The notes under the pieces: model-generated | Seen by the model: only the letters and a program-made list of their open reading frames with translations | What the model was told of the DNA's origin: nothing | Databases searched by the model: none | NCBI GenBank assembly: GCA_964019425.1 | Contig: OZ025806.1 | Span: 1 to 64,000 of the forward strand | Direction of reading: 5' to 3' | Source: Flectonema sp. DT1601 | Lineage: Eukaryota | Length of the DNA: 64,000 nt | Part shown: piece by piece, positions 11,408 through 29,140 of the stretch | Numbering within the stretch: the stretch's first letter is position 1 | Layout: each line of letters begins with the position of its first letter | Made by a program: the position numbers and the translations under genes

Positions 11408-13741
11408 GAGGATGTGCAGAAACCCCCCCCCCCCCAATTTTTACCAGGCTATCCTGTGGGCACCTAACCCCTAATCCGAGCCCACCACCCCACGAAAATA
11501 CTATCCAAAAAACTCAAATCCGGTACTGGGGCACCCTTTTACTGCCCACCAGTTTAAAAACTTCACTTTTTTGACTGTTTCTAGTAACAATTGCCTTGTA
11601 AGCTGTGTAACACTGTGGTAGAAAGTATGTTCATAAATTGTTTTTCCTGAAGGCGCTCAGAAATTGTATAAAAGAATAGATACAACTTGTACTTATTATT
11701 ATGCATATTTCAGCTTTTTTCCTTTCAAACTGTGGGGGTGTTCATCCCGCTTAAGCTTTTTTTTTTTCTTCTCTTTCTCTTGTTTTTCTGATTCCAGTTT
11801 CCTGGCCTTTAACTCCTCGAATAAGTTTTGTTTTCTCTCTCTTGCCCGTGCAAGAGTCCGAGTAAGACTGCCATGCTCTTCTTCAACAGGTTCAGGAGCA
11901 GGTTTATCATCATCACTGCTGAGATCATCGTCGTAATGCGGGTCATTCATCGGGAGCTTGTTGCTAATTTTAGGGACAAAGGTAAGCTTCCTTTGCTTCT
12001 CTTTAAGTTGAAGTTCAAAGCAATCCTCAGGATCTGAACCTGAAAGGGGGCTCACAAAGATCTTATCGTTGATCCTTTGAAAACAGCTGATGGAAGTGAT
12101 GTCTCGGATGTCATATTCTCCGACTGTAAAGTCTTGTTTGCGGAATCGAGTGTACAATGCAGTAGTGTTTGCGATCATAGGCTCGATTGCCGCTTTGACA
12201 TCTTGGAGCGTACAGATTTTCCGCGACTTGGACGCGAGTGTCAGTGCAGATGTGACATTGCCGAAGTGACGGTCACACTCAGACTTGCCATGCCGACCAG
12301 GGAAAAAGTTAACCGAGCTGATTAACTTATTCTGCAGAAGAGAACTGATGACGGTTTTATTCTCAAAGTGTTTACCGGCATCAGCCCAAAAATGAATCAT
12401 CTTGTCCTTCCCATGCATCAAGAAGAACTTCTTCAGAACCAGATAAGTCACTGCGGCACCCTGGTTGATGTGTGGGAGGAGAAAGTCGATATGGTTTCGC
12501 TGAACCTCAGTTCCAAGCTGCTCATGTAGTACACATCCAAGTAGACTGTATTTCCCCTGTTGATAGAAAAGAGAATTTGGCTCTTCTGGCATCAGTGGAA
12601 GCTTCCCCTTCTCTTTGTAATCCAGGGTCATAATTATATGATCACCGGGATTAGATGTGTGTTCACGATACACCTGACACTGCTCCCTTGCTTCGTCGAT
12701 GTGGGAATCTATCTCGATAATTCCTTTGATATACTTCTCAGCTTCAGGCTTGTCGCGCCGTGGAAGGCTGTCCCGCTGATGTAGAAGGCTCCAAAGACCC
12801 CACCCATTACGCCGACCAGCATCCCAGATACATGTGGTGAAGACTGAAGACGTTAGGCGGGCAAGCTTGTTACGGAGACCCTTGCCTGTGAGACAGTAGT
12901 TGCACACATCTGTACGGCGTCGTAACTGCTGAAACTCTACTCCACGTAGAGAACGGTACTGTGTGTATGAGATGGTGTCTTTTAGAGGGGGGTAATCGTA
13001 GACTAGTTGATACGAGGTCATCATGTTTTCAACAGTAACTGCCTCTCCCCTTCTTTTTGATTCGCGGATGAGTTTCTTGCTGGTACTACTAGAGGCCGCA
13101 AGGTGTTCATCTCGAACCTGATTTTTCATGTCGGGTGTTACAACTGATGGGCGACCACCGACATCCACCACCTTGGCTTTGTTCTTCCATAAATCTTTTC
13201 CTACTTTTATCCCAGTCTTGTTCACTTCTGCCATTCCCCAGCCACTGGAACATAGAGCCTGTAGCAGTGCCCTCTGATGAAGCAGCTCTAGATTCTCGAA
13301 AAACTCTGGTAATCCCAAGGGTGTACTTGTTTTGAGCAGCATTGCTTGACCCATCACTGCCAGCAAGAGTGACCCAGGATTACCACCCGATATCGTACTC
13401 AGCAGTTCTCTCACGGACTGTATTATTCTCCATGTCTCACCATTACTTGTCCTATCATTCCAGTTCTCAAAGGAACTCAGAGTTCTAACAAATTTCTGCA
13501 ATGTAGTTCCTAAGCTCATTTTTGAGTATTTTAGGGGTAACTAACAGAGGTATAAGGCAAATGTTACTAGAAACAGTCAAAAAAGTGAAATTTTTAAACT
13601 GGTGGGCAGTAAAAGGGTGCCCCAGTACCGGATTTGAGTTTTTTGGATAGTATTTTCGTGGGGTGGTGGGCTCGGATTGGGTGTTAGGTGCCCACGGGAT
13701 AGCCTGGTAAAAATTGGGGGGGGGGGTTTCTGCACCGCCTC
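11408..13741 (-). mobile_element. Sola2-like DNA transposon, apparently intact
   Basis: ~190-bp TIRs (11408-11600 / 13551-13741) with GAG...CTC termini. ATAT 4-bp TSD (11404-11407, 13742-13745) is confirmed against the empty site in spacer copy 2. Confidence 0.85.
11699..13519 (-). CDS. Sola2-type DDD transposase, 606 aa
   Basis: ATG ORF inside the TIRs. DVCNYC, IMTLDYKEK, FWADAGKHFEN and FFPGRHGKSECDRHFG resemble Sola2 catalytic motifs; K-rich NLS-like tail. Confidence 0.8.
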   Translation of the reverse strand: MSLGTTLQKFVRTLSSFENWNDRTSNGETWRIIQSVRELLSTISGGNPGSLLLAVMGQAMLLKTSTPLGLPEFFENLELLHQRALLQALCSSGWGMAEVNKTGIKVGKDLWKNKAKVVDVGGRPSVVTPDMKNQVRDEHLAASSSTSKKLIRESKRRGEAVTVENMMTSYQLVYDYPPLKDTISYTQYRSLRGVEFQQLRRRTDVCNYCLTGKGLRNKLARLTSSVFTTCIWDAGRRNGWGLWSLLHQRDSLPRRDKPEAEKYIKGIIEIDSHIDEAREQCQVYREHTSNPGDHIIMTLDYKEKGKLPLMPEEPNSLFYQQGKYSLLGCVLHEQLGTEVQRNHIDFLLPHINQGAAVTYLVLKKFFLMHGKDKMIHFWADAGKHFENKTVISSLLQNKLISSVNFFPGRHGKSECDRHFGNVTSALTLASKSRKICTLQDVKAAIEPMIANTTALYTRFRKQDFTVGEYDIRDITSISCFQRINDKIFVSPLSGSDPEDCFELQLKEKQRKLTFVPKISNKLPMNDPHYDDDLSSDDDKPAPEPVEEEHGSLTRTLARARERKQNLFEELKARKLESEKQEKEKKKKKLKRDEHPHSLKGKKLKYA

Positions 13742-13827
13742 ATATATTAAGATTTTTACGTAAGCACGGTAAGTTTTCATACATTTTCTTCTGCTTGGCA
13801 AACAGAGGTGTACAGGCAATAAAAAAA

Positions 13828-13938
13828 CCCCAAAAGAAGAGAATTCTTCCTAAGAGGTTAGCTAAATATTCTAAGCAAGCTTAGATATTGAGACTGTACC
13901 AATAAAGTACAGAAACTGTAGCTTTAGAATCGTTGGTT
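13828..13938 (-). ncRNA. Spliced-leader RNA gene (39-nt exon 13938-13900; intron starts GTACAG)
   Basis: Minus strand reads AACCAACGATTCTAAAGCTACAGTTTCTGTACTTTATTG|GTACAG, a euglenozoan (diplonemid-type) SL; ends at a T7 tract (13821-13827). Confidence 0.95.
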
Positions 13939-14046
13939 AACCTTAAAAAGTAATTACCCCAGGTAATTAGAAATTGCGTGGCTTTTAGAACTACTAGCTA
14001 GTAGTAGCAGAAATGCTTGCTTGCGGGTAGGGAAGCAAGATAAAAA

Positions 14047-14165
14047 GCCTGCAAGCACCCGGGGTTCCCACGTGATCACTCACCGCAGTACTAACCAGGC
14101 CTGCTGGTGCTTAACTTCCCAAATCGGGCGGGATGGGGTGCATTCACCAGAGTATGGCCGCAGGC
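14047..14165 (-). rRNA. 5S rRNA gene
   Basis: 119 nt GCCTGCGGCCATAC...GAAGTTAAGC...GGTTAGTACT...GCAGGC with complementary ends, followed by a T5 Pol III terminator. Confidence 0.96.
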
Positions 14166-14178
14166 AATAGCAGATTTC

Positions 14179-15830
14179 TTTTTTTTTTTTTTTTTTGGTT
14201 ACACTCGTCTGTGCTTCCAGACTCTTTGTTTTTGTTCTTTTCACTTCTTTGTTTTGTCTTTCTTTTATACTTTCTTTTGGTTTAAGTCTGACAAATTGGA
14301 AAACACGGGAAACATAGGTAGGCTCCGCCTGAGGACGTAAGAAGAGCGGCAACGGAAAAGAATAAATGGTCACGCGTCCTTGAAATTGGACACATGAAGC
14401 CAATTCGGTTGCCATTCCTACCATCGATAAGGAAAACAAAGAGTCGAGCATATAACTAGAGCGGTGGTCAAAGACCACTTGAACAGCCCGAAGGGCTGCC
14501 CTCAAGAGAAATTTATAAGGAGAATAGGAGAAGAAGGAGACAGGAGTGTTGGAAGAGACACTGCGACAACACCGAAGGTGATGTGCAGTTACCCAACCAG
14601 GAGATGATTGGTAATGATGAAAATACTAAATATTGATAAAACACTTAAATGGCGACTACGTGTCACCTACACAATTCCAAAGTCTCAGGTTGGATGCTTG
14701 TTCCATCCACCTGATCAACATCGCTACTGAAGGAAGCCAGCTGGTGGCAAAGATTGCGCCAAGACTGGCAGGAGTGCCGTTGATGAGGATTAGATCACTT
14801 GATCGGTCCCATTTGCCTGTCAATGTAGAAAAGCCAAGGATTTCATATCTGGCTGCATCGAGTTTCTGTGATGGACAGCCTACGAGTAGGTGGAGTTGGT
14901 TGGATGGAGCGCTATGGCAGAATGGACATTTGATGGCTTTCCGCCAGTTTTGCATCAGTGGATGACACCCCGTTCTGAAATTCGCAATTCTGATTTCATC
15001 GCTCCTTTTCATGCCGGGAGGATATTTTATCGCGGCACCTTTGACGGTGTTTTTATAGCAGGTGTAACCAATTCTGTTCCAAATGTCCTTCGTGATCCCC
15101 CTCCTCACTCGGGATTTGTGATAGAAGAAGGATCCTCGGATTGGGATTTGAGGGAGGTATCTGTTGTGAGCCGACTTCTTAGCAAGTTCATCAACTTCGT
15201 CGTGTGCTTCTATCCCCATGTGAGAAGGGATGAATTGAAGATGTACTTTCATACCGCAGTTCCGTAGGTTCTCGAGGATGCCGAGGGATCTGGTGTTTCT
15301 CTGTTTACACCTGCCACCCTTCAACTCGTCCAACAATGATTTTGAGTCGGTATAGATTCTGACTGACTTAGTTAACCCGTCTTTCTGTACCTTCCAGTTT
15401 AAGTAGTTTGCCGCATTTTTCAAGGCATGTTGCTCAGTTCTATAGCTGCAATCCGCACGCACTAATCTGGTCGCATGAGCACGTTTCTTTCCGTCTCGTG
15501 ACTTAGCAATGGGAGCCGCGCCTGACGCACTCGAAGAGTATGAACCGTCACAGTTGATCACCATGTCCACCGGAGGAAGTGTCGCGTTGTAGGTAAGGAA
15601 TTTCTCCCTGTCCACTGCGGGATCAGGGGATTTTATAAAACCGCAGCTGTTGCTGATTTGAACATTGCCCGAAGCAATCCAAGGTTTGATAGAGTCAGGT
15701 TGAACGATCCCCACGCTTTCTAGTTGACCTTCAGTACGGGGAATGAGGCCACCCCAGAAGCTTCGAGGCGATGCGAGTGAGTTGGTGTCCGGCACCCAGG
15801 TCATGGCTTTGTACCTGAAATAGGCGATTT
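14179..15830 (-). mobile_element. 5'-truncated Ingi/I-group non-LTR retrotransposon (copy A, diverged subfamily)
   Basis: Poly(A) at 14179-14196; 3' UTR nearly identical to copies B and C. Candidate TSD AAGAAAT (plus strand ATTTCTT at 14174-14180 and 15840-15846). Confidence 0.92.
14656..15830 (-). pseudogene. C-terminal part of ORF2 (RNase H + CCHC), truncated
   Basis: NCDGS, YTDS, FIPSHMGI..HDEVDELAK, CPFC..HLLVGC; collinear with the end of the full-length ORF2. Confidence 0.9.
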
Positions 15831-16001
15831 TTATTTTTTATTTCTTGGGAGTTCAGTGGGATGACCCACCACGAAAAAAAATTCGCAGAAAAGATTTAGT
15901 AGCAGAGTGGGGCTGGGGCTCGGTCTTAGCTTTAACGTTAACATAGGAGCGGCGAAAATTACGTCTTTCGGGGTGAAAAGCCAAAAAAAAAAATACATTA
16001 A

Positions 16002-17718
16002 CCCTTTAATAAGAGGCTGAAAACCCTGTTTTTGAGAAAAATCGAAAAATTTGACAAAGGGGAAAAGGGGTGTGGGGAAAAATACAAAAAAATTACAGGG
16101 TGAAAGACACCCCCCCGCGCATTGAAAAAAAACTGAGGTCAGCCCGCAAGGGGGCCAAAATAACTTGAGAAAATGCAACAACAGCCTAAAAAAACACTGT
16201 TGCTTAGGATCCCTGGGTTCGCTTTGATTTTGGCAATGTTGTAGGAGTAGAGTGCTTCCGTTTCATGTTTTTCGGTGGGATATGATTGTGTGTAGCAAAG
16301 GTATGGTTGTTGCAAACAGGGGCTGAATACTTGTCAATATTTTCGTGATATTGTTCGAAGCAGGGATCCACGCATAAGAAAACCTCGCTTTTTGAACAAG
16401 AAGTCGATGACCTTACTTTTTTTGAGAACAAATCCGTGAACTGCAGTCCCCAAAAATATCAAATTTTCGTAGGTAGTGACATTTTGTGTGAGTTTGGTGT
16501 GTTCCATGATCAATAAGTTGAGAACATGGCCTTTTTTTGAACTGAGCATATGTCCCGACGTCTTTTTCAGACTTCTTTTGGAGGGTGAAAACATTGAAGA
16601 TAGAAATCCCTAACAAGTAGTGAAAGACTTTCAGGGTCCAGCGTTTTGTCATCAGAGTTCTTCTTGCCTTCCCCCTGATACCGTCTACGAGGTCAACACC
16701 ACCCATTAGTTTGTTGTACTGATGGATCTGTACCGGTAAGTCGATGGTCACTTTTTGATGGATTTCCTTATTTTAGTCCATCACGTGGCTGTCTCATAAT
16801 TCTCCTCGAGAGGCAATGTGCTGAGGACATGTACTTCTTTTGGATTGCCCCTGAATTTATGTGATGCACATTGTGCTAGGACTGAAAGTACGAGGCAGAG
16901 AACTTCTCCACCCGTCCCTGCGCCTCCGCCTTATTGATCTCGGACCATTTGGGAACTATTGTTTCCCAAAAGCTGCGGATTTTGTAGAGCTTGTCAGCAG
17001 GTACGGGGTTGGTGACAGTGTAAAACTTTAGATAGGTTCGAATTTAGAGGAACCGATCTCAGGAAGCGAAGTGGGGTGTGTATGCTGGGTCTGATGTACC
17101 GTTCCTGTAATCTGAGATATTTGGTTTATTACAGAGACCCACGAGGATATTGAGTCCTAAAGAGAGTTTGAGTTCAGCTACGTTAAGATTGAGTGCCTAG
17201 TTGTTGCTGCAGTGCGAAATCATCTCATCACCTTTGGGGTGAACACAAGTTCAAATTTCTGCAGTTCCTTCATCAATTTCAGGTCTGACATGTTCTGCAA
17301 GGACCGCCGAAACGTGCGTCGTTTTACCTTGGTGATTTTCTTGCTCCATTTCAGAGGGGAAATGCTTGGCTCTATTGTACTCTTTTCATCGCTCGAAGAA
17401 GACTCAGGAGCACCCAAATCTGGGATAGGTGACCCTACTGAATCATTTTCGATGGAAATAGTTTTAGGGATTTTATTTTTTGGCCGAAAACATGGGATAG
17501 TCATGGGCAACCTGGCTAAGACTGTTCCCAGTGCAGAAAAAAAAAAATGAATTTTTTCTCAGAAAAAGCTGGTGATTTTTGCAGCACGATCCCACATAAA
17601 ATTTGTCGTTTTTTGGCAGCTCTGGCTCCACCCTTGTACTCACAAGGTACATTTTTCCCCTTTGTCAAAAAAAAAAAAACGCGAAAGGCCACTATAGTGG
17701 CCTTCAGGGCTTAAAGGG
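16002..17718 (-). mobile_element. piggyBac transposon with decayed transposase
   Basis: TTAA TSDs (15998-16001, 17719-17722) and CCCTTTAA...TTAAAGGG ends. Broken frames carry YNKLMGGVDLVD...KRWTLKVFHYLL and Cys-rich LCVDPCFEQYH. Confidence 0.9.
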
Positions 17719-17769
17719 TTAATAATATATATTAAGATTTTTACGTAAGCACGGTAAGTTTTCATACAA

Positions 17770-17948
17770 TCTTATTTAAGGGCAAGCGCCGACGTAAGTG
17801 GAAGACCTCTTCACCAGAATCTCTAAAATCAAAAGGCAGTCACCTGAAAGACCAACTGAAGAAGGGGAACAGCTTTAACTTCGCCTTCAAGAAGATTAAA
17901 GAACTCCAACAGGACGCTGGTAAGGACATCAGCGTATCAAATATATCA
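17770..17948 (+). pseudogene. Inverted internal fragment of a related retrotransposon ORF2
   Basis: Translates LFKGKRRRKWKTSSPESLKSKGSHLKDQLKKGNSFNFAFKKIKELQQDAGKDISVSNIS, matching ORF2 LFKGKRGRKWKTSTPDS...FAFKKIKELQQDAGKDISVNNIS. Confidence 0.85.
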
Positions 17949-18149
17949 TCAAATCCTACTTTCAAAACTACAAAGAATGGGCATCCAGCACTCTCATCGT
18001 GAGAGTCAAAACCCTCCTTCTCTTTTCTTCTCCTGCTAGCCCTTTCTCCACTTCTTGTACTAGCCGCATCACATCCAAAAGCAGCTCCTTACAACTGTCA
18101 AAATTCCATTTAGGTAATTTGCCACCGAAACTGAGCACCAAACAAAAAC

Positions 18150-18222
18150 CGCCGTCAGCGGGTTTTGAACCCTCGACCGCCATTCTTGCAGACCGGCGTT
18201 CTATCAATTGAGCTATGTAGCC
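18150..18222 (-). tRNA. Degenerate tRNA-like Pol III gene or pseudogene (isotype uncertain)
   Basis: GGCTACATAGCTCAATTGATAGAACG...GGTCGAGGGTTCAAAACCCGCTGACGGC, with A box, B box, ~73 nt length and a T5 downstream. Acceptor and anticodon stems are mismatched. Confidence 0.65.
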
Positions 18223-18238
18223 ACATAATCGACATTCC

Positions 18239-18904
18239 TTTTTTTTTTTTTTTTTGGTTACACTCGTCTGTGCTACCAAACTCTTTGTTTTTGTTCTTTT
18301 CACTTCTATGTTTTGTCTTTCTTTTATACTTTCTTTTTTGACTTAAGTCTGACAAATTGGAAAACACGGGAAACATAGGTAGGCTCCGCCTGAGGACGTA
18401 AGAAGAGCGGCAACGGAAAAAATAAATGGTCACGCGTCCTTGAAATTGGACACACGAAGCTAATTCGGTTACCATTCCTACCATCGATAAGGAAAACAAA
18501 GAATCGAGCATATAACTTGAGCGGTGGTCAAAGACCACTTGAACAGCCCGAAGGCCTGCCCTCAAGAGAAATTAATAAGGAGAATAGGAGAAGAAGGAGA
18601 AAGGAGTATTGGAAGGGACACTGAGACAACACCGAAGGTGATGTGCAGTTACCCAACCAGGAGATGATTGATAATGATGAACATACTAAAAATAATAACA
18701 AGTTGATATTGGCGACTACATGTCACCTACTTTACTTCCAAAGTCTAAGGTTAGATGTTTGTTCCATCCACCTTATGATCAACGCGAGTGATGGAAGCCA
18801 CGCCAAAGTGAAGAGAGCTTCAAGGTTAGGAATTTCGTTGGCAATAATAAGTTCTCGATCGCGATCCCACTTGCCGGTCAGTGTTGAGAAGCCCAGGATT
18901 TTGA
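18239..18904 (-). mobile_element. Short 5'-truncated retrotransposon (copy B)
   Basis: Poly(A), 3' UTR and the last ~56 codons of ORF2; bounded by ATTCCTTTT at 18234-18242 and 18905-18913. Confidence 0.92.
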
Positions 18905-19395
18905 ATTCCTTTTTTTTTTTTTCGGTTACACTCGTCTGTGCTTCCAGACTCTTTGTTTTTGTTCTTTTCACTTCTTTGTTTTGTCTTTCTTTTATACTTT
19001 CTTTTGGTTTAAGTCTGACAAATTGGAAAACACGGGAAACATAGGTAGGCCCCGCCTGAGGACGTAAGAAGAGCGGCAACGGAAAAATAAATGGTCACGC
19101 GTCCTTGAAATTGGACACATGAAGCTAATTCAGTTACCATTCCTACCATCGATAAGGAAAACAAAGAATCGAGCATATAACTAGAGCGGTGGTCAAAGAC
19201 CACTTGAACAGCCCGAAGGCCTGCCCTCAAGAGAAATTTATAAGGAGAATAGGAGAAGAAGGAGACAGGAGTGTTGGATGAGACACTGCGACAACACCGA
19301 AGGTGATGTGCAGTTACCCAACCAGGAGATGATTGATAATGATGAAAATACTAAAATAATAACAAATTGATATTGGCGACTACATGTCACCTACT

Positions 19396-22300
19396 TTACT
19401 TCCAAAGTCTAAGGTTAGATGTTTGTTCCATCCACCTTATGATCAACGCGAGTGATGGAAGCCACGCCAAAGTGAAGAGAGCTTCAAGGTTAGGAATTTC
19501 GTTGGCAATAATAAGTTCTCGATCGCGATCCCACTTGCCGGTCAGTGTTGAGAAGCCCAGGATTTTGAACCTGGCCGAGTTGAGTTTGGGAGATTGACAT
19601 CCCTGCAGCAGGTGAACCTGTGAGGACGGTTCGCCACAAAATGGGCAGTCGATCGTCTTGCGCCAGTTCTGAATTAGCGGGTGACATCCTGTCCGGAAGT
19701 TCGCTATCCGTATCTCGTCGGCTCTTTCCATCCCAGGAGGGTATTTAACGGAACGGCCTCTGATGAGGTGTTTGTAGCAGGTGTAACCACTCACGTTAAG
19801 CAGATCCTTTTTGATGCAGCGCTTAACATGTGATGATCGCGAGAAGTAAGTGCCTTTGACTAGCACAGGTCGGATGTTCTTGTTGTGCGCTGCTTCCTTT
19901 GCAAGCGCGTCAACTTCATCGTGAAACTCGATTCCAATGTGCGAGGGGATGAATTGCAAATGCACTTTCATTTCACACATGCGCAGGTATTCCAGTATCT
20001 TCAAGGACTCAGTATTCTTCTGTCTGCACCTTCCACCCAGCAGTTCATCCAGAAGGGATTTTGAGTCCGTGAATATCCTTACGGATTTCATTGAACGATC
20101 TTTGCTAAACACCGTTTTCAGATGTCTAGCCGCGTTCTTCAGAGCATGTTGTTCAGTCCTGTAGCTGCAGTCAGCTTGATAAAGCCTAGACGCGTATGCA
20201 GATCGAAGGCCGCTACGTGACTTGGCAATATGAGCCGCACCGGCCGCGCCGGAAGCAGAGTAAGAACCATCGCAGTTGATTACCATGTCGACAGGAGGTA
20301 ACGTTCCAATGTACGACATGAATTTTTCTTTGTCCACCGCAGGGTTCGCGGACTTCGGAAATCCGCAGCTGTTGCTAATCCTAAGGTTCGTCGGAGATAC
20401 CCAGGGTTCCATCGAGTCAGGCTGCACTAAGCACTGGCTTTCACGCTGACTATCAGTGCCAGGGATTAGGCCAGCCCAGTAGCTTTGTGTTGAGGCGAGT
20501 CTGTTTGTATTAGGTATCCAAGTCATGGCTTTATACCTGTAGTACGCAATTTTTGTCTGCTTTTCAATCTGACGTTTAAAAGGATACATGTCAGACTCCC
20601 ACAACAGTAACTCTCTTGGCGTACACTTGCTGCATCCAGTAACCAGTCTGGCGACCTTCCTCAGTTCGAAGTCGATGCTGTCAACGCTGCTGCTTATCAG
20701 CCAACCAAAACTGTCAAGCGCATACGAGATTCTCGCGGTTACATAAAGGTTCTTAACCATGTTAAGAGTCTTGTAGTCCAGTTCGTACGGCTGGAGGCAC
20801 TGCAGAAGTGATATCCCCCTCTTTAATTCTTCGTGAATCTTGCCTACTTGTTTGTGGAAGGTGAGCCTGTCGTCGATGTGAACCCCGAGGTATTTTACTG
20901 AGTCGACTATCGGTAACAGAAAGGCAGTTTTGAATATTGCTCTCACAACCATAATGCTGTCCTCACGAACGACGTATTGCAGCATCAAGTTGTCGAGTTC
21001 TTCTTGTGTCTTGATTGGGATTCCTCCAATTTCAAGAATCGTTTCGCCACTTTGAAGCATGGGTCTGGGTGATTTGAGATTGATATGATTCTCGATGTCA
21101 CCATAGTCAAGTTTAAGCATGCGTTCCTCAACAGATCTAGAGAAAGGCAGTTCGCGATTACACGTATCGTTTAGTACTATGCCCTTCGAGCGAACATTCA
21201 TCTTAAGCGCACAGGTTTTGGAGACTGATAAGGCCATGTCGTTTTCAAAACACCATTGATCCACTTTGTCGAGTACTAACTGAGCATTCGAAAGAGCTTC
21301 TTCCATGTTTGATCCTGACACCACACATGCTGTGTCATCCGCATACAGAGCAGACGTCGTTGTTTCCTTCTCCAGTTCCAAAATCTTGCAGAGGTCATCA
21401 ACGTAGATAAGATAGAGAAGAGGACCCAGGATCGATCCCTGGGGAACCCCCTTAGCCAGAGTACGGAATTCGCTAAAATACCCATTCGCTTCAACTCTAA
21501 CCTTCCTGTTTGTAAGAAAGTCTGTGATCCATCTGATAATAACATTCGGAACACCCATCTTTACTAATTTTAATAAAAGTATCTTATGGTTGATCCTGTC
21601 AAACGCAGCAGTAAAGTCGAATGACAAGAACACTGATCTCTTTTCTTCCATGTGGCTCCTTACGATAGCATCTACTAGAACGGTGATCTGCTCGCAGGTA
21701 TTTCTCCCCTTTCTGAATCCAGCCTGTAGTGGGCTGAGCGACGAATGTTTTGTGAGCCAGTGCATGAGTCGGTCATACACGAGCCTCTCCGCAAGTTTCC
21801 CAACAACCGAGGTGAGCGTTATTGGTCTGAAACTCTTTAGTTCATTACGAGGTTTCCCTGCCTTGAACATGGGCTTGATTAGTCCCTGTTTCCATTGGTA
21901 CGGTACTTTTGAAGTCTTCCAGGAAGTGTTAATAATTCTCAAGAGGTATTCCACTGTTGCCGGAGTGAAGTTTTTGATCATCTCATTGTGAACTCCATCA
22001 GGTCCTGCAGCCTTGCGGGTCTTCAGGTTCTTAATCGCAGCTTTAATTTCAGCCATTGTGAAATCACAGCAAATATCTATTTCATTATCACCTTCTGAGA
22101 GTGCGGGGGCCTCTAGCGATAATATTTCCGATTTCGAGACAAACAGGTCCAAGAATGCTGATGGGAGATCGCAGTCAGAGATGTTGTTGACACTGATATC
22201 CTTACCAGCATCTTGCTGCAGTTCTTTGATCTTCTTAAACGCAAAGGCAAAGTTGTTACCCTTGTCAAGTTGATCACGTAGGTGGACACCCTTCGATTTG

Positions 22301-23307
22301 GTAGAATCAGGGGTTGACGTCTTCCACTTTCGTCCCCGTTTCCCTTTGAAAAGGAGACGTCGACGAATGAATTTAGCCGCCACTTCATGCAGTATGTTGT
22401 TAAAGAGCTTGGCATTCGCAGTTGCATCATCGGAGAGTCTTGATTTTCTAATTCTCTTTTCGAGCATGGTCCCAAAGCAGTTCCAGCCCGTAGACTTGAA
22501 GTCCCATACAACGCGTTTCTTCGAACCTATCGTGGCCCGTGCAAGTTGGCACATGGGATCCAGTACGGTGTAGAGAGGTCGATGATCTGACCCATGTTTA
22601 TTATCTTCTTCAATTGCACTAAATTCTTCAAGAACCATCGAGTTTGAAAAGAATACTACATCTGGCGAGGTACCACCCCCCGGGACGTCAGGAAAAGGCC
22701 TTGTGATTGACCCCATCTTGTTAGCAACCAGTAGATCATTTTGAGCTGCCCATGCATGTAGAGTTGAACCTGCTCTCGTCGATTTAAGTGACCACACCGG
22801 ATGATGGGCATTAAAGTCACCCGCGACGATTGCTTTCGTTGAGACTGGAAGATCTGACTCTCTGATCATGCATCCCGGGGGAGCATAAACATTGATGATG
22901 TCAATCTTTCCACCTATGTTGACCTTCACGACCTCGACATCATTTAAGTGTGGCGGAAGCTCCATGTTCAAACGCTGCTGAGTGTGGCATTTTTTCACCA
23001 TAGAAATAACCCCTCCACCTCGTGTTGCCCTATCATCCCGATAGGTGAAATAGTCCGTGTGCGAAATTACATCATTCGCCCAAGTCTCCTGTAAGCACAG
23101 TACGTCAGGCGCATAGACATTAAGCAGCTTGTGAATATAAGCGCCTTTGTTCCCCATCGATCGACAGTTCCAGCTCAGTAGAGATATGAGAGAGTTGCCA
23201 GGGCCAGGGTTGCGTTCGACGTCGCCTGCCTTTAGCAGCAGTTCACGAGCCGTATCCTTTTCCACAAGTGAGTTGGTCGGACTGAGTTCATCCTCATCGT
23301 CATCTAG
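19396..23307 (-). CDS. ORF2 polyprotein: 2A peptide - AP endonuclease - RT - RNase H - CCHC; no ATG before the first APE motif
   Basis: APE: SWNCRS, CLQET, GDFNAHH, GSDH. RT: KAAGPDG, FRPITLTS, QAGFR, DFTAAFD, GVPQGS, YADD, YLGV. RNase H: NCDGS, FTDS, PSHIG. C-terminal CPFC..HLLQGC. Confidence 0.95.
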   Translation of the reverse strand, partial: LDDDEDELSPTNSLVEKDTARELLLKAGDVERNPGPGNSLISLLSWNCRSMGNKGAYIHKLLNVYAPDVLCLQETWANDVISHTDYFTYRDDRATRGGGVISMVKKCHTQQRLNMELPPHLNDVEVVKVNIGGKIDIINVYAPPGCMIRESDLPVSTKAIVAGDFNAHHPVWSLKSTRAGSTLHAWAAQNDLLVANKMGSITRPFPDVPGGGTSPDVVFFSNSMVLEEFSAIEEDNKHGSDHRPLYTVLDPMCQLARATIGSKKRVVWDFKSTGWNCFGTMLEKRIRKSRLSDDATANAKLFNNILHEVAAKFIRRRLLFKGKRGRKWKTSTPDSTKSKGVHLRDQLDKGNNFAFAFKKIKELQQDAGKDISVNNISDCDLPSAFLDLFVSKSEILSLEAPALSEGDNEIDICCDFTMAEIKAAIKNLKTRKAAGPDGVHNEMIKNFTPATVEYLLRIINTSWKTSKVPYQWKQGLIKPMFKAGKPRNELKSFRPITLTSVVGKLAERLVYDRLMHWLTKHSSLSPLQAGFRKGRNTCEQITVLVDAIVRSHMEEKRSVFLSFDFTAAFDRINHKILLLKLVKMGVPNVIIRWITDFLTNRKVRVEANGYFSEFRTLAKGVPQGSILGPLLYLIYVDDLCKILELEKETTTSALYADDTACVVSGSNMEEALSNAQLVLDKVDQWCFENDMALSVSKTCALKMNVRSKGIVLNDTCNRELPFSRSVEERMLKLDYGDIENHINLKSPRPMLQSGETILEIGGIPIKTQEELDNLMLQYVVREDSIMVVRAIFKTAFLLPIVDSVKYLGVHIDDRLTFHKQVGKIHEELKRGISLLQCLQPYELDYKTLNMVKNLYVTARISYALDSFGWLISSSVDSIDFELRKVARLVTGCSKCTPRELLLWESDMYPFKRQIEKQTKIAYYRYKAMTWIPNTNRLASTQSYWAGLIPGTDSQRESQCLVQPDSMEPWVSPTNLRISNSCGFPKSANPAVDKEKFMSYIGTLPPVDMVINCDGSYSASGAAGAAHIAKSRSGLRSAYASRLYQADCSYRTEQHALKNAARHLKTVFSKDRSMKSVRIFTDSKSLLDELLGGRCRQKNTESLKILEYLRMCEMKVHLQFIPSHIGIEFHDEVDALAKEAAHNKNIRPVLVKGTYFSRSSHVKRCIKKDLLNVSGYTCYKHLIRGRSVKYPPGMERADEIRIANFRTGCHPLIQNWRKTIDCPFCGEPSSQVHLLQGCQSPKLNSARFKILGFSTLTGKWDRDRELIIANEIPNLEALFTLAWLPSLALIIRWMEQTSNLRLWK

Positions 23308-23310
23308 TCA
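23200..23310 (-). other. Recoding cassette: in-frame UGA-CUAG stop followed by a 2A StopGo motif (LLLKAGDVERNPG|P)
   Basis: AAC TGA CTA GAT GAC GAT GAG...; 14 open codons connect the ORF1 stop to the track's ORF2 start in the same frame. Exact DxExNPGP motif. Confidence 0.85.
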
Positions 23311-24957
23311 GTTGAGATCAAAGTCCGAATCGTTACTTTCCATTTCTACGTCACGGTTTTTATCACTACCCTGCTTAGCAGCAGATTCGGTGGGCGGTGT
23401 TGTTGTTTGTGCTGTTGCTGGTGCTGGCGTTGGTGTTGGTGCTGATGGTGCTGGCGCTGGTGTTGGTGCTGATGTCGGCTGCTGAGTTGGCTGTTGTGGT
23501 TGAGGAGTTGTTTTTTGTCTCTTCAGGGTTCCCGTTAGTTTTTGAGCCGCGTCGCCTGGGTTGTAGGTTGGGCCTAGCGGTTTTCTGTCAGTTCGTTTAA
23601 CTTCTTTGTTTATCACAAGGTATTCATTAGTACCTATGCTTACGAAGTTGGGCGGTTGAGATTTCGCAATTGCAACAATTGTAGTACTCCCTCCTTTATG
23701 GAAAGAAGCAACAACTGTGTGTCCCCAGTTGTGTGAGGACTTCAAGAAGTCGCTGATCTGCGCTGTCGAGTACTTACGAATCGCCATCGAATTTATAACA
23801 AACCTGTCGCCCGAGGGCAGTGCAGGCTTGATTGCCGCGTTGAGCTTAATGCTGACCCTGATATTACAGTCAGGGTGGACTCGGAGCCCAAAACAGCTTT
23901 TAAACCTGCACATGTAGAATTTTCCTTTGAATTCATCAAGTGCAGAAGCCTTGGACTTCGCTGCCAGGAAGCCAAGGTCGTTTTTGAATTGCAACGTTGG
24001 CCAAACGTCACTTCCGTTCGACCAACTCGGGTTTCTGAAAAAGACATTCTTGGGTTTGTCAGTTTCGGGTTCGCTGTTGTTGTATTCCAGAACCTCGTGT
24101 ACTTGGTTTCTGGGGACTCTGAAAGCCATCGAGGTGTGGGACTCGTTCTTTCTGTAGCTAAAGGGGTCCGCCTTTATCTTCAATTTCTTTAGAATATCGG
24201 TCGTTTTGACGGTCAATTCTTTCTCAGCTGATTTACCCCCGTCTTGGATGAATAGAACTGGGTTGGGAGTTGGAATCTGGTAGCTAGTTGCTGCTTTAGA
24301 AAAGTCGTCACCAAACACGTGCGTGTAAAATACGCGCCTGATCTCGCAGACGCCACCCTTTTTTATCACCGGTAATGCTACTGGAACGGTGCTCTTTGTG
24401 AGCGGGATTTTGCTGATAGCAGCCCAACGGCCGCTCTTCTTTGTTTGGCGGAGTGCTTCTAAGTCTAGCTTCGAACGAACTAAAACAAGACCAGAGGTAA
24501 GGTTGTTTGTAGCATTAGCTGCTACGTCGTAACTGATGGTGGCCACAGCGCCTGCCCACGCACCGTGAATGTGCCACTCCGGGTAGCTTGCTTTTGCCTT
24601 TCCCTTCGTGGTTTGATTGTCCTTCATTGCTGTCGGTATCGGCAATGAGAACGGCTTCGTACTCGTTTGTTGATTAGAAGCTGTAGATGCTCCTGTAGTT
24701 GGTTGGTTGACACCTGTAGTTGAGGGTGTCGTCGCTTCTGCTGCCGTCGTCGCGGTCGCTTCCGTCCCACCACTCCCATCGAGTGTGTCCGGTGTCCTCC
24801 TCTTCATCTCCGGGTTCCCACCTTCTGACCCAGCTACGAATTGAACGATCCCCATTAGGAGATTTGCCACCCTTCTTTCCTTCTCTTGCTCCGGGATCCC
24901 GTCTTCTCCCACTATCTTCAGGAGGTCCGATACCAACCTCTTCAGGTTGTCTCTCAT
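23308..24957 (-). CDS. Retrotransposon ORF1, 549 aa, no family recognised
   Basis: Starts at the first ATG after the SL relic (MRDNLK). Basic core, T/P/A-rich linkers, acidic end. Confidence 0.85.
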   Translation of the reverse strand: MRDNLKRLVSDLLKIVGEDGIPEQEKERRVANLLMGIVQFVAGSEGGNPEMKRRTPDTLDGSGGTEATATTAAEATTPSTTGVNQPTTGASTASNQQTSTKPFSLPIPTAMKDNQTTKGKAKASYPEWHIHGAWAGAVATISYDVAANATNNLTSGLVLVRSKLDLEALRQTKKSGRWAAISKIPLTKSTVPVALPVIKKGGVCEIRRVFYTHVFGDDFSKAATSYQIPTPNPVLFIQDGGKSAEKELTVKTTDILKKLKIKADPFSYRKNESHTSMAFRVPRNQVHEVLEYNNSEPETDKPKNVFFRNPSWSNGSDVWPTLQFKNDLGFLAAKSKASALDEFKGKFYMCRFKSCFGLRVHPDCNIRVSIKLNAAIKPALPSGDRFVINSMAIRKYSTAQISDFLKSSHNWGHTVVASFHKGGSTTIVAIAKSQPPNFVSIGTNEYLVINKEVKRTDRKPLGPTYNPGDAAQKLTGTLKRQKTTPQPQQPTQQPTSAPTPAPAPSAPTPTPAPATAQTTTPPTESAAKQGSDKNRDVEMESNDSDFDLN

Positions 24958-25015
24958 AATTGCTTTTTCCTGTGAAACGTACCCACTGATTCTTACCAAT
25001 ATTAGGTTGCGAAAT

Positions 25016-25072
25016 CAATAAAGTACAGAAGTACAGAAAAGTACAGAAGTACAGAAGCACAGAAGTACAGAA
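25016..25072 (-). repeat. Stuttered SL relic at element 5' end: six TTCTGTAC-type units, the last continuing into TTTATTG
   Basis: The final 15 nt (TTCTGTACTTTATTG) equal the 3' end of the SL exon at 13914-13900. Confidence 0.9.
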
Positions 25073-25446
25073 TTCCTTTTATTTCTATAAGCCAATGTCT
25101 CTATTAGTTTTCTGACGATATCAAATATTTCTATCCCTTTATCAGTTCTCACACCCCTGTCTTCATCACAAGAAAACTTATATTTAAATTAAGTCCCACC
25201 CACCCTTCCCCCGCCGGTGCCCCGTCGAATCGAAACAGCCCGGTACAACCCCTACGCAGAAGTAATCTGCACCACAGTGTAGATTCTTCTAAGTGATCTC
25301 AGACTTGTTAACTGCATGTTCATTCAATTAAGTATACTTCTCTTTCCCAGGTGCATACAGTATAGGAAGGCTAATTACTCATTATAGTTTTATGTCTGTC
25401 AGAAAACCCGCACAAAATCGACTCTCACCAGGCAATGGTAGGAAAT

Positions 25447-25473
25447 CAATAAAGTACAGAAAGTACAGAAACT
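25447..25473 (-). repeat. Second stuttered SL relic (AGTTTCTGTACTT-TCTGTACTTTATTG-ATTTC)
   Basis: Matches the SL 3' part twice and is followed by the same ATTTC as copy C. Confidence 0.8.
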
Positions 25474-26230
25474 TTTTTTTCCTCCAGTATGGGCTACTCC
25501 TCTAGCAACGAAAATATTTTGTATAAAGTTGGCAGTTTCGGAAACTTTTGTGTTCGGATTAGGTTTTCCCTTTTTTTTTTGAATTTTTTATTTTTTTTTT
25601 TTTTTTCATGAACAACGAAAAAAAAATTTTTTTTTGAGTGTTTCACTACTGTGTTTCTCTTGTTACTACTATAATTGCTTAGGCGCTGCCCTTACTGGGT
25701 GGCTGTTCAATTTTTCGAGACTGGGGGATGCGACACGGAAACTGATTGCGCTGTGAGGCGCGGTGCGTACAGCGGGGTTCGAACCGAGGCCGATTGGGCA
25801 CCACCCCATCCAGGTGCCAAGCTGTCTTTTTGTTACAGTTTAGACAATTTGGGTTTTAATAAATAAATTCATTCACTTTTGCAGTTATTTGCCACTTTGT
25901 TACATCTCACTATTCTGAAAAAGCAATCTTTGATTTCATTTTTTTTTGGGTAAAGGGGTCTTCCTACACAAATAGTTTCAGAACTAACCATTCATTACAA
26001 AATCCAAAATGGCTGTAAACCGTCCAGTTCGATCCTGGGTGAGGGCATTTTTTTTTTTTTTTTCTTGATTTTTTTTTCAGGTTGGACTTTGTACAGGGGA
26101 GGTTGGCTTTTATTAGTGGCTCCCCCAGGTTGGGGGGGGCTTGCGTTCTGCCAAATTCCCCATCCCGTAGTTCTTCTCACATTTCTATTTTATTGAAAAT
26201 AATGTAATGAACGATAACCTTATTAATATA

Positions 26231-26766: not shown

Positions 26767-26792
26767 TGCGGGTTTGCGGGTTTGCGGGTTTG
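26767..26792 (+). repeat. Interstitial 3-copy GGGTTTGC seed
   Basis: TGCGGGTTTGCGGGTTTGCGGGTTTG; same unit and strand as the large array. Confidence 0.9.
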
Positions 26793-27367: not shown

Positions 27368-29140
27368 CTACAAAAACCTACACAATCTACGAGGCATGAA
27401 AGCCCGATGCCTGAGCAATGTGCTCGTTGGGAGGTTGGTATGCGCAGTCCAAAATGGAGCAAATGGACCGAAATAACTTTTGAAGTTTCTACTATGCACC
27501 GCACCAAATGTTGCCTCGGGGTTGCATTTTCTCAGAATTCCTTTCCAATCCTTTGGAAGAGTCTTGTTTGTGAAGACCAGATGGACATCACGTGGAGAAA
27601 CTGATGCAGATGTGTTCTTTCTAAGCTCGTCTCTGGAGAGGGTTTTCACATCTCCAGCGTGTTCCTGGAGCTTGCATGACACGCTGAGCGTTTGATCCTC
27701 GCTAAGCCTGTAGAAAACGGCAGCTGACGGAGCACCCTTCCCGTTGATAACACACACATCCGTAGTCAATTCCCTCGAACCGCTACTTGTGTTGATGCTC
27801 CAGTTCCCATTCTTAGCTCCAATGGCTGCAGCCTTCTTCTCGCTTGCTGAGGTAATTCGACGGGAACTCTCAATAACTGTTAAAGGTCTGTTGGTGCACT
27901 TCATGTATCCCTTACCGACCCAGTCAGCCCCGTAGTGCATATCATTGAGGCACGTTGCTCCCTTCGGCCGTACATGTGAACGGATTGCGAGGATCTGAGC
28001 CGCGAACTTTTCGTAGCCCTGATTCTCCACTGAAGCTGACCAGTCCCAGTCTCTGAGGGTGGCGGATCCAAGGTTTCTTTGAAGCGCGAGCCACAGGGGT
28101 GCAATCTCCAAACGCCAGTTGTTAAGCGTCATCAATCCAGAGGCAATTACTGGGTCAAGTTCGAGCGCTTCCTCGTCTGACAAATTCTTGAAGCACATGT
28201 TGAGCAGGTGTGGGACGTTGACATCTGGAGCAATCATGCGGTACCTAACAGAAAGGTTGGTGGCAGCATACTCGCACAATTTCTTGAAGGAACAATGGGG
28301 CTTCTTAACGTCAGCAACCGCCTCGACAGCGCGCGGATGACCAAGTGTTAGAGACATCACAGTCTCAGCATTCTGGGTGATCCCTTCAGGCATTCTAAAC
28401 AGCTTGGGGGGGTGCATTAGAGCTCCACTGACCGTAGCTGAGGCCGCCATTGCTTTGCGAACCGGTTCTGAGACTGTGGCACTTGCCACAGGGAACAGGT
28501 TATATGTGTCTGAAAGCATCACACTTGACAGTGTGTGGAGGATGATCCGCATGTTGCTGTTCTGATATGCATCTCTTTCCGAACCCACATTGTGGACACC
28601 GTCGACAAGCAACAATATGAGTGGGTTGTTGCCTGCAGCATCGTGGATTTTCTGTGCGACCGTCCCGATCGTTGTGCCACGCCAGGTGCTCGTGAATTCA
28701 TGGAAAGTTTTTTCTTTACTTCCTCCTTGACCCTTCAGCTGCCACATCATCCGCACCGCTACTGAACCCACGACAGCAGAATGTGAATCTATATCCTCCG
28801 GTAGCACCGGTGTGCCATTTTCGAAAGAAACGCTGACTACTATAAGCTGGTGTTTTTTGAAGTACTTCGGAAAGAACGTCTTTAGCAACCGCGGCACCTC
28901 CGTCAGAGTGCGGCTCTTCCCAGTGCCCATCCCACCTGCGATGGTTACAAGAGATAGCATCTGTTTCGCACCGATCTTGTCTTGGCAGCTTATGAATGAC
29001 TTGAAAGCTTTCTTAAGTGACTTCAGGTCCTTTTTTGCGTGTTGAAAATTCCAGTTTCTCCCAGTATCACCAGATGCGAGCAGAGGGTACAATTTTCTCC
29101 GCAGATCCTCTGACGTAAGCGTAACTTCCGGTTTGGTTTT
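27368..29140 (-). CDS. Crinkler/RHS-type P-loop NTPase + REase-fold protein, probably a 3' exon
   Basis: Walker A GGMGTGKSR, Walker B LLLVDGVH, GHPRAVE and C-terminal NGKGAPSAAVF..SVSCK. Phase-0 acceptor CACTAATACAAACACAG ends at 29141. Confidence 0.65.
   Translation of the reverse strand, partial: KTKPEVTLTSEDLRRKLYPLLASGDTGRNWNFQHAKKDLKSLKKAFKSFISCQDKIGAKQMLSLVTIAGGMGTGKSRTLTEVPRLLKTFFPKYFKKHQLIVVSVSFENGTPVLPEDIDSHSAVVGSVAVRMMWQLKGQGGSKEKTFHEFTSTWRGTTIGTVAQKIHDAAGNNPLILLLVDGVHNVGSERDAYQNSNMRIILHTLSSVMLSDTYNLFPVASATVSEPVRKAMAASATVSGALMHPPKLFRMPEGITQNAETVMSLTLGHPRAVEAVADVKKPHCSFKKLCEYAATNLSVRYRMIAPDVNVPHLLNMCFKNLSDEEALELDPVIASGLMTLNNWRLEIAPLWLALQRNLGSATLRDWDWSASVENQGYEKFAAQILAIRSHVRPKGATCLNDMHYGADWVGKGYMKCTNRPLTVIESSRRITSASEKKAAAIGAKNGNWSINTSSGSRELTTDVCVINGKGAPSAAVFYRLSEDQTLSVSCKLQEHAGDVKTLSRDELRKNTSASVSPRDVHLVFTNKTLPKDWKGILRKCNPEATFGAVHSRNFKSYFGPFAPFWTAHTNLPTSTLLRHRAFMPRRLCRFL

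What the first reader, a model, noticed from the sequence alone, without database searches (positions are those of the whole stretch)
14166..25080. Ingi-like retrotransposon appears to target the upstream edge of Pol III genes
Seen: copy A's TSD ends 8 bp before the 5S start. Copies B and C are stacked head-to-tail at one site, with AAAAGGAAT three times, ending 11 bp before a tRNA-like gene. All are co-oriented with the Pol III gene, and the two targets share only an A-rich GRAAT. Known: Pol III-relative targeting exists in yeast Ty3/Ty1 and Dictyostelium TRE elements; I know no such case for Ingi/L1Tc. Inference: position-specific integration, perhaps tethered to TFIIIB/C. Only two loci are visible here.
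Basis: partly seen in the sequence, partly recalled or inferred. Interest (0 to 1): 0.8.

Follow-up and report, generated by a model that had tools for sequence, protein, structure and literature searches.

The report
Diplonemid retrotransposon beside 5S/tRNA gene starts
In a marine flagellate of the diplonemid group, three copies of a LINE-type retrotransposon end 8 to 11 bases in front of a 5S rRNA gene and a decayed tRNA-like gene and point the same way, which likely means the element is steered to RNA polymerase III start sites, a habit that among LINEs has been described only in slime moulds.

Summary
Copy A's 7-bp duplication ends 8 bp before 5S. Copies B and C are stacked with a 9-bp duplication three times, ending 11 bp before a 73-nt tRNA-like gene. 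All are co-oriented. Public contigs show both sites without the element, so these are true insertions. The host is a diplonemid: a spliced-leader (SL) gene follows 5S, and the closest named homologues are from Flectonema. A and B/C belong to two subfamilies (64-67% amino-acid identity), and they sit at two different Pol III promoter types. Only 2 of 18 sites with the shared AAGRAAT motif are occupied, and both are the Pol III-adjacent ones. Position-specific targeting is the best reading (0.62), but it rests on two loci: no genome and no further junction could be obtained. The second target is a degenerate tRNA (Rfam 17 bits, below cut-off). The element is Ingi-like (2A, APE, RT, RNase H) but not a typical ingi/L1Tc. 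It starts with tandem SL fragments instead of Pr77, has an ORF1 joined in frame to ORF2 across one TGA, and ends in CCHC. The closest known behaviour is dictyostelid NLTR-A and TRE5-A.

The parts
13830..13938 (-). SL RNA gene: 39-nt leader exon 13938-13900 followed by a GT donor; the 3' end of the intron part is approximate
   Evidence: 37 of 39 letters equal to the 'Euglenozoa 14' leader in PMC3795323; part of a 5S-SL tandem unit of about 600 bp
14046..14165 (-). 5S rRNA gene (target 1)
   Evidence: Rfam RF00001, 98.7 bits, full length
14174..14180 (-). Target-site duplication of copy A, gene-proximal copy (positions -15 to -9 of 5S)
14181..15839 (-). Copy A: 5'-truncated member of subfamily 2 (RNase H, CCHC, 3' UTR, poly(A))
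   Evidence: Its ORF is identical to P0136 and 97% to P0002, 64% to subfamily 1; PF00075
15840..15846 (-). Target-site duplication of copy A, distal copy
   Evidence: spacing agrees with the empty unit in run X2
17778..17954 (+). Internal remnant of subfamily 2 (ORF2 residues about 326-377), no ends, opposite strand
   Evidence: 92% to P0002 by tblastn
18150..18222 (-). Degenerate tRNA-like gene with A and B boxes, GCA in the anticodon loop, followed by a T run (target 2)
   Evidence: Rfam tRNA model positions 1-71, 17.2 bits, below cut-off; not called by ARAGORN; same sequence with 1 change in run X4
18234..18242 (-). 9-bp duplication, gene-proximal copy (positions -20 to -12 of the tRNA-like gene)
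   Evidence: empty site in X4
18243..18904 (-). Copy B: 5'-truncated member of subfamily 1, about 660 bp
   Evidence: 96.7% to C
18905..18913 (-). 9-bp duplication between C and B
18914..25071 (-). Copy C: full-length element of subfamily 1, about 6.2 kb
19396..23307 (-). ORF2 frame, open from the ORF1 stop: 2A-like peptide, APE, RT, RNase H, CCHC
   Evidence: PF14529, PF03372, PF00078; 2A, CCHC and catalytic motifs
23308..24957 (-). ORF1, 549 aa, same frame as ORF2, ends in one TGA; predicted N-terminal helix pair and three RRM-like domains
   Evidence: no Pfam hit; 5 homologues; low-confidence model, RRM-type matches Z up to 7.1
25016..25071 (-). 5' head of copy C: six tandem 8-10-nt pieces of the SL exon ending in the exact 3' end of the leader
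25072..25080 (-). 9-bp duplication, distal copy
25196..25470 (-). Piece D: a second SL-headed sequence (two SL pieces, then the same five letters as C), body unrelated to C; the 3' limit is approximate
   Evidence: 29 letters shared with C's head

Best explanation
This is a diplonemid clade of APE-RT-RNase H LINEs whose three ended copies here sit co-oriented 8-11 bp upstream of a 5S gene and a tRNA-like gene, and which is likely guided to that position by the assembled Pol III initiation complex rather than by DNA sequence alone. Shown: the positions, orientation, duplications, poly(A) tails and empty sites; two subfamilies at two promoter types; the SL-derived 5' end; ORF1 and ORF2 in one frame across one TGA with a 2A-like peptide. 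Inferred mechanism: the element's RNA is likely made by host Pol II read-through and capped by SL trans-splicing. ORF1 would be translated from the leader, and rare read-through of the TGA followed by the 2A skip would release a small amount of APE-RT-RNase H. The particle would dock at the downstream edge of TFIIIB, the factor common to 5S and tRNA promoters. APE would nick the nearest T-rich spot on the template strand (-15 of 5S, -20 of the tRNA-like gene), and poly(A)-primed reverse transcription would then give a co-oriented copy with a 7-9-bp duplication. Each insertion regenerates the target in front of the gene, which would explain the C-B stack. Slippage of RT between the two U runs of the leader would give the tandem SL pieces.
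For: Exact junctions. Empty sites in runs X4 and X2. A is subfamily 2 and B/C subfamily 1, 64-67% amino-acid identity. The two targets share no sequence beyond AAGRAAT. In the 33,706-bp pre-insertion reconstruction, 18 AAGRAAT sites exist on both strands and the only 2 occupied are the Pol III-adjacent ones (1 in 153 by chance). Under uniform insertion, two hits in a 25-bp sense-strand zone have p about 5e-7. Precedent: TRE5 targets both tRNA and 5S through ORF1-TFIIIB contact, and NLTR-A (APE-RT-RNase H) sits 2-6 bp upstream of tRNA genes (passages of PMC5911963 and PMC5006619). tRNA-like genes with A and B boxes but no cloverleaf are transcribed Pol III elements in trypanosomatids (passages of PMC4950102). 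SL head: motif 3 times in the window against 0.05 expected. No ATG in frame before the first APE motif.
Against: Only two loci and three events out of a family group with 280 stored protein sequences in five clusters. B and C share one site, so they are not independent. The window was picked because of this pattern, and the AAGRAAT motif was derived from the two sites themselves. The tRNA-like gene is degenerate and its transcription is not shown. An opposite-strand remnant of the family lies 200-370 bp downstream of it. Read-through is inferred from one junction. Flectonema ORF2 isoforms P0004 and P0150 are recorded as complete ORFs starting with Met just before their 2A, so read-through need not be general. 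The UGA-CUAG read-through context is recalled and was not found in the review I searched.
Confidence: 0.62

Rival explanations
1. Sequence-specific insertion: the endonuclease recognises an AAGRAAT-like word that happens to be a conserved upstream element of this organism's Pol III genes, so the link to Pol III is indirect.
For: Both duplications contain AAGRAAT. The site was reused although each insertion leaves the word on both sides. L1Tc has an endonuclease-driven site consensus (passage of PMC5814959).
Against: 16 of 18 such words in the window are empty and the two used are the Pol III-adjacent ones. The empty allele in X4 differs at two letters of the word, so it is not strictly conserved upstream of that gene.
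Confidence: 0.15
2. Regional preference only: an ordinary T-rich-nicking LINE is enriched in the nucleosome-free DNA around Pol III genes and repeat arrays, with no tether and no fixed distance.
For: The region is a nest of transposons. Two DNA transposons sit in the same spacer of the 5S-SL unit, and a remnant of this family lies nearby on the other strand.
Against: All three ended copies fall in a 4-bp range of distance (8, 11, 11) on one side and one strand, although much longer A/T tracts lie within 1 kb. Even within one 600-bp array unit a 25-bp sense-strand zone is about 1 position in 50 (arithmetic).
Confidence: 0.15
3. Chance plus selection: insertion is near random, the tRNA-like sequence is a dead pseudogene, and insertions next to multicopy small-RNA genes simply survive.
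For: n = 2 loci in a window chosen for the pattern; the tRNA-like gene is below the Rfam cut-off.
Against: The surrounding DNA is gene-poor and tolerates many other insertions, so selection does not single out these positions. Uniform null p about 5e-7 for two sites. The tRNA-like sequence is nearly unchanged in an independent run.
Confidence: 0.08

Closest known systems
NLTR-A of Dictyostelium purpureum (and NLTR-B of Polysphondylium pallidum)
   Same: Non-LTR element with ORF1 and APE-RT-RNase H; found 2-6 bp upstream of mature tRNA starts in 16 measured copies (passages and table of PMC5006619).
   Different: Different supergroup of host. Distance here is 8-11 bp and includes a 5S gene. NLTR-A's ORFs overlap by 13 bp, whereas these are in frame. 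No SL head or 2A is mentioned in the passages read. Relationship of the two RTs was not tested.
TRE5-A of Dictyostelium discoideum
   Same: LINE that integrates at a fixed distance upstream of tRNA genes and of 5S genes; ORF1 binds TFIIIB (passages of PMC5911963).
   Different: L1 clade, no RNase H. It inserts 40-54 bp upstream and in the opposite orientation; the element here is co-oriented and about five times closer.
ingi / L1Tc of trypanosomatids (INGI clade)
   Same: 2A directly upstream of APE, then RT and RNase H; poly(A) tail; short duplications; euglenozoan host (passages of PMC3708506, PMC12278014, PMC5814959).
   Different: ingi/L1Tc have one ORF and no ORF1, a 77-nt Pr77 promoter/ribozyme giving unspliced RNA, and C2H2 fingers. 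This element has ORF1, an SL-derived head and a CCHC motif. No Pol III-relative targeting is given for ingi/L1Tc in the passages read.
CRE / SLACS / CZAR (SL-RNA-gene-targeted elements of kinetoplastids)
   Same: Euglenozoan non-LTR elements tied to SL sequence and SL arrays.
   Different: They use a restriction-like endonuclease and insert inside the SL gene. Here the endonuclease is APE, the insertion in the 5S-SL unit is upstream of 5S, and the SL sequence is inside the duplication-flanked element.
Ty3 / Tj1 / DGLT-A LTR retrotransposons
   Same: Integration within a few bases of the Pol III start, at tRNA and 5S genes.
   Different: Integrase-based LTR elements, unrelated chemistry.

Membership tests
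ingi/L1Tc (INGI clade) | APE, RT and RNase H in one reading frame, in that order | tested here: met
   APE and RT Pfam hits in C, RNase H hit in A's homologous region; RNase H acidic motifs in C
ingi/L1Tc (INGI clade) | 2A-like peptide directly upstream of APE | tested here: met
   GDVERNPGP in C and subfamily 2, variants in P0004 and P0011; activity not tested
ingi/L1Tc (INGI clade) | Poly(A) tail and target-site duplication | tested here: met
ingi/L1Tc (INGI clade) | Single ORF, no ORF1 | tested here: not met
   549-aa ORF1 ending in TGA; stored full-length subfamily 1 and 2 ORF2 proteins begin after that point; separate ORF1 homologues exist
ingi/L1Tc (INGI clade) | 77-nt Pr77 promoter with HDV-like ribozyme at the 5' end | tested here: not met
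   The first 56 nt of full-length C are SL-exon pieces; no ribozyme family at E up to 10 over 24950-26200. The Pr77 sequence itself was not aligned.
ingi/L1Tc (INGI clade) | C-terminal C2H2 zinc fingers (as in L1Tc) | tested here: not met
   0 C2H2 matches and one CCHC motif in C and in the clade members checked
ingi/L1Tc (INGI clade) | RT phylogeny groups with named Ingi elements | tested here: inconclusive
   No named ingi/L1Tc protein came back. In a quick tree the clade lies in a 21-row group (SH-aLRT 97) with other unnamed 2A-APE-RT-RNase H proteins
Pol III-targeting retroelements (TRE5, NLTR-A type of behaviour) | Most genomic copies at a fixed distance from a Pol III gene | not testable with these tools
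   No genome held; 3 of 3 ended copies in the window fit, at 2 loci; no further junction recovered
Pol III-targeting retroelements (TRE5, NLTR-A type of behaviour) | Fixed orientation to the target gene | tested here: inconclusive
   3 of 3 ended copies co-oriented; one endless remnant on the other strand
Pol III-targeting retroelements (TRE5, NLTR-A type of behaviour) | Targets of different sequence (tRNA-type and 5S-type promoters) | tested here: met
   One 5S and one tRNA-like target; one example each
Pol III-targeting retroelements (TRE5, NLTR-A type of behaviour) | Dependence on B box / TFIIIC and contact of an element protein with TFIIIB | not testable with these tools
   No host TBP, BRF or BDP1 sequence in hand; needs experiments
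CRE/SLACS/CZAR | Restriction-like endonuclease and insertion inside the SL RNA gene | tested here: not met
   APE endonuclease; the SL gene at 13938-13830 is uninterrupted and no duplication contains SL sequence

The most novel reading that the evidence does not exclude
A diplonemid lineage of Ingi-related LINEs has independently evolved TFIIIB-guided, co-oriented integration at the Pol III start edge, the first such non-LTR case outside dictyostelids. It has also given up the ingi promoter/ribozyme for host SL trans-splicing, so that full-length copies carry leader fragments as a record of their RNA. It expresses ORF1 and ORF2 from one frame by stop read-through plus a 2A skip.
Probability: 0.35. 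Interest if true: 0.82.

Novelty: new variant of a known kind. Interest (0 to 1): 0.62.

Why it matters
Pol III-relative integration by LINEs is listed only for dictyostelid amoebae in the 2018 review table. A case in Euglenozoa, in an Ingi-related clade, in the opposite orientation to TRE5 and at the start-site edge, would be another independent origin. It would also give a direct test of whether TFIIIB is the general docking point for target-primed reverse transcription. It can be tested at once on the source assembly, which holds five related subfamilies, and one diplonemid is genetically tractable (abstract listing). A LINE that lands predictably beside multicopy Pol III genes is also of interest as a safe-harbour insertion tool. 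The SL head and the ORF1-stop-2A junction bear on how LINEs are expressed where Pol II transcription is polycistronic, and on the published idea that 2A replaces ORF1: here both are present.

Tried and rejected
No genome is held for the window, so junctions could not be collected. The exact 3'-end pattern found 0 stretches in metagenome contigs and 0 in viral contigs. The search for related loci returned 69 metagenome loci and 23 genome-contig loci, all distant (best segments mostly 25-37% identity), and 0 viral loci. None of these 92 has a tRNA, SL core, 2A motif or match to the 5S, tRNA-like or 3' UTR sequence; they are other families and mostly short contigs, so they say nothing about targeting. 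Sequencing runs: 5 listed, all with small shares, no RNA holder listed. Four of the five (X1-X4) were laid, X5 was not. One X3 contig carries 46 letters beyond the element's 3' end, but the tool dropped loose ends at the T run, so that flank was not seen. Co-occurrence of subfamilies on contigs of equal length: 15 shared pairs among 64 family-contig entries from the 75 members listed. The p value runs from 0.69 to 0.02 for 100 to 200 contigs, and the true number is unknown, so this is inconclusive. A divergent snRNA gene about 104 bp from box A, as in trypanosomatids, was not found: only chance-level Rfam rows over 24950-26200. ORF1: no Pfam hit, unnamed Atlas neighbours at 0.90, no Foldseek match at E 0.001. 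ORF2 structure relatives are L1 and R2 proteins only. The careful tree did not finish; the quick tree was used. No complex was predicted, since no host TFIIIB sequence was available. Four look-ups in earlier findings were empty. TGA read as a sense codon in this genome was considered and rejected: two other long ORFs of the window end in TGA. Supplements of PMC10161547 held as text gave no transposon target data; the supplementary sections on repeats and structural RNAs that its main text cites did not turn up in those searches and could bear on novelty.
Full report
Scope. No genome was held for this window, so the work rests on the window, on homologous proteins, on low-depth public contigs and on papers. 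Papers were seen as search listings and keyword passages only, never whole.

Host. Downstream of the 5S gene (14165-14046, minus strand, Rfam 98.7 bits) lies a 39-nt sequence at 13938-13900 followed by GT. It matches the 'Euglenozoa 14' spliced leader in a table of PMC3795323 at 37 of 39 letters. 5S and SL genes share a repeat unit in Diplonema papillatum (passage of PMC10161547). The named close homologues of ORF2 and ORF1 are from Flectonema neradi (40-49% and 47-48% identity), and a more distant one is from Diplonema japonicum. The host is therefore a diplonemid.

The observation. Copy A has AAGAAAT on both sides and ends 8 bp before 5S. C and B are stacked with AAAAGGAAT three times and end 11 bp before a 73-nt tRNA-like sequence. 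Each copy ends in the same 3' sequence and a poly(A) run. Relative to the gene's first base the duplications span -15 to -9 and -20 to -12.

The second target is not a normal tRNA. ARAGORN genes. The Rfam tRNA model aligns over its full length at 18222-18150 but with 17.2 bits against a cut-off of 29, and 3 of 7 acceptor pairs fail. It keeps a good B box, a near-consensus A box and a downstream T run, and is the only such match on either strand under my own pattern. A contig of run X4 has it with 1 change over 132 bases, so the broken stem is not an assembly error of this window. In trypanosomatids, tRNA-like genes with both boxes and no cloverleaf are transcribed and act as Pol III promoters (passages of PMC4950102). 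That this one binds TFIIIC is inferred.

Empty sites. Five runs hold small shares of the stretch; four were laid. A 418-base contig of X4 covers 18098-18229 and 25076-25194 with 8 letters between, the number expected if B and C are removed; two of those letters differ from the window's duplication. Contigs of X1, X2 and X4 close the 5S-SL region into a tandem unit. The 636-base X2 contig runs from 5S straight into the spacer with 39 letters where the window predicts 41, and its unit of about 606 bp agrees with about 598 bp rebuilt from the window. So A is an insertion in one unit of a 5S-SL array, and C+B is an insertion in front of the tRNA-like gene. These contigs have depths of 2.5 to 15 and could come from related strains.

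Is it more than chance? In a 33,706-bp reconstruction without A, B, C, the satellite and the duplicated gene block, a 25-bp sense-strand zone before either gene is 7.4e-4 of all positions, or 5.5e-7 for two sites. The two duplications share AAGRAAT. That word occurs 18 times on both strands, and the 2 occupied sites are the 2 next to Pol III genes (1 in 153); the looser GRAAT occurs 156 times. Both tests are post hoc: the window was chosen for the pattern, the motif comes from the sites, and B and C share a site. A more cautious figure, conditioning on landing within a 600-bp neighbourhood of each gene, is about 1 in 50 per site (arithmetic). Copy A belongs to a different subfamily than B and C: its ORF is identical to P0136 and 97% to P0002, but 64% to subfamily 1. 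Two subfamilies therefore chose the same relative position at two promoter types. Against the pattern, a 177-bp internal remnant of subfamily 2 lies on the plus strand at 17778-17954; it has no ends, so its original target cannot be read.

No further junction was obtained. The pattern scans were empty, the 92 related loci were distant families, and the one contig with a 3' flank was masked at the T run. Five ENA clusters with 101, 37, 42, 74 and 26 members, on long contigs whose lengths recur across clusters, suggest that one assembly holds enough copies for the decisive test.

Anatomy of the full-length copy C. (1) The 5' end, directly inside the duplication, is six tandem copies of a six-letter piece of the SL exon separated by T runs of 2, 2, 2, 4 and 2, followed by the exact last letters of the leader. 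The 16-letter leader end occurs 3 times in the window against 0.05 expected: in the SL gene, in C, and in a second piece D at 25470-25447, which has two units and continues with the same five letters as C. The leader ends at its splice donor position, which points to a trans-spliced RNA as template at some stage. The uneven T runs fit RT slipping between the two U runs of the leader; this is inference. (2) ORF1 (549 aa) and ORF2 are in one frame with a single TGA between them: the 1,854-codon stretch has stops only at codons 550 and 1,854. Twenty-eight codons after the stop the 2A core GDVERNPGP begins, followed by APE. The first in-frame ATG lies after the first APE motif, so normal initiation would clip the enzyme. 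All 6 ORF1 sequences aligned end in Asn (7% of the 369 stored proteins do), though two are near-copies of C. The bases after the stop, CTAG, match a read-through context that I recall and did not find in the one review searched. Flectonema ORF2 isoforms start with Met before their 2A, which argues against read-through being general. (3) ORF2 has APE, RT, RNase H motifs and one CCHC motif, with no C2H2. (4) ORF1 has only 5 homologues, two from Flectonema and three ENA clusters on long contigs. A weak model (pLDDT 51, pTM 0.28) shows an N-terminal helix pair and three alpha/beta domains whose matches include many RRM proteins, Z up to 7.1, a lead only. (5) Subfamilies 1 and 2 share the 470-nt 3' UTR at 95.6% while their coding DNA is about 65% alike, which implies recent exchange, as could happen between elements stacked at common sites.

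Classification. In a quick RT tree of 77 rows, ten diplonemid-clade rows form one group (SH-aLRT 99) inside a 21-row group (97) that holds other 2A-bearing APE-RT-RNase H proteins. No named ingi or L1Tc protein was retrieved. By the passages read, Ingi elements have 2A directly before APE, encode RNase H and lack ORF1 (PMC3708506, PMC12278014), and L1Tc has Pr77 and C2H2 fingers (PMC5814959). The element works like an Ingi-type LINE in its ORF2 but fails three features of trypanosomatid ingi/L1Tc, so I do not file it as a member.

What is known. The review table in PMC5911963 lists four non-LTR Pol III-targeting families, all dictyostelid: TRE5 (40-54 bp upstream of tRNA, 37-41 bp upstream of 5S, opposite orientation, ORF1 binds TFIIIB), TRE3, NLTR-A (2-6 bp) and NLTR-B. 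NLTR-A and NLTR-B carry RNase H and could not be placed in a known RNase H clade (PMC5006619). The Diplonema genome paper says a rigorous transposon survey is still to be done. Searches for diplonemid, Ingi or euglenozoan elements with such targeting or with an SL head listed no paper on it by title or abstract start; the library lacks most subscription journals and Repbase.

Verdict. The feature is real and the insertions are confirmed by empty sites. Pol III-relative targeting is the most likely explanation (0.62), ahead of a sequence-only rule (0.15), regional openness (0.15) and chance (0.08). The behaviour is a known kind, seen here in a new supergroup, clade, distance and orientation, in an element with an unusual 5' end and ORF junction: a new variant of a known kind, interest 0.62. 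One count on the source assembly would settle it.

Noticed in passing
window 1-11262 and 26767-26792: A nearly perfect array of 1,408 copies of an 8-bp G-rich unit abuts a truncated spacer of the 5S-SL unit. The G-rich strand is on plus at the window's left end, the reverse of what a left telomere would show. Three more units lie at 26767.
   Followed up: no
window 11408-13741 and 16002-17718: Two DNA transposons sit within about 10 bp of each other in paralogous copies of the 5S-SL spacer. One has about 200-bp inverted ends, a 4-bp duplication and a 606-aa ORF with no Pfam hit (Sola-like, label recalled). The other is TTAA-flanked (piggyBac-like, label recalled). A second TTAA-flanked element is at 33124-34207.
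   Followed up: partly
run X1 contig laid on window 13790-15993: A 388-base contig at depth 15 closes into an SL repeat unit that lacks the 5S gene, so SL-only and 5S-SL arrays may both exist in this species or its relatives.
   Followed up: no
window 25196-25470 (minus): Piece D: SL-headed sequence with the same start as C but an unrelated body. It is present in runs X1, X3 and X4, and in X4 it continues differently. It may be the 5' part of another family, a non-autonomous partner or a retrocopy.
   Followed up: partly
run X2 contig laid on window 25021-25057: A 38-base contig made only of the 8-bp SL-derived unit has depth 33.5 against about 3 for the element body, hinting at longer or frequent heads; it could also come from another organism.
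   Followed up: no
window about 26010-26050 (plus): A sequence resembling the 3' half of a tRNA (anticodon loop, T arm) followed by a long T run, with no 5' half; no Rfam match.
   Followed up: partly
window 38238-48756 and 53474-64000: A 10.5-kb block duplicated at 99.7% identity holding giant proteins of about 3,040 aa with 19 RTX calcium-binding repeat stretches each, unusual for a eukaryote.
   Followed up: no
window 27368-28960 and 30316-31260 (minus): A 530-aa ORF starting with a P-loop motif, and a 314-aa piece that looks like a Penelope-type RT (label recalled); neither has a Pfam hit at E 0.01.
   Followed up: no
3' UTR of copies A, B, C (14197-14670, 18256-18731, 18924-19395): Two subfamilies only 64-67% alike in protein share a 3' UTR at 95.6%, with a sharp boundary at the ORF2 stop.
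   Followed up: partly
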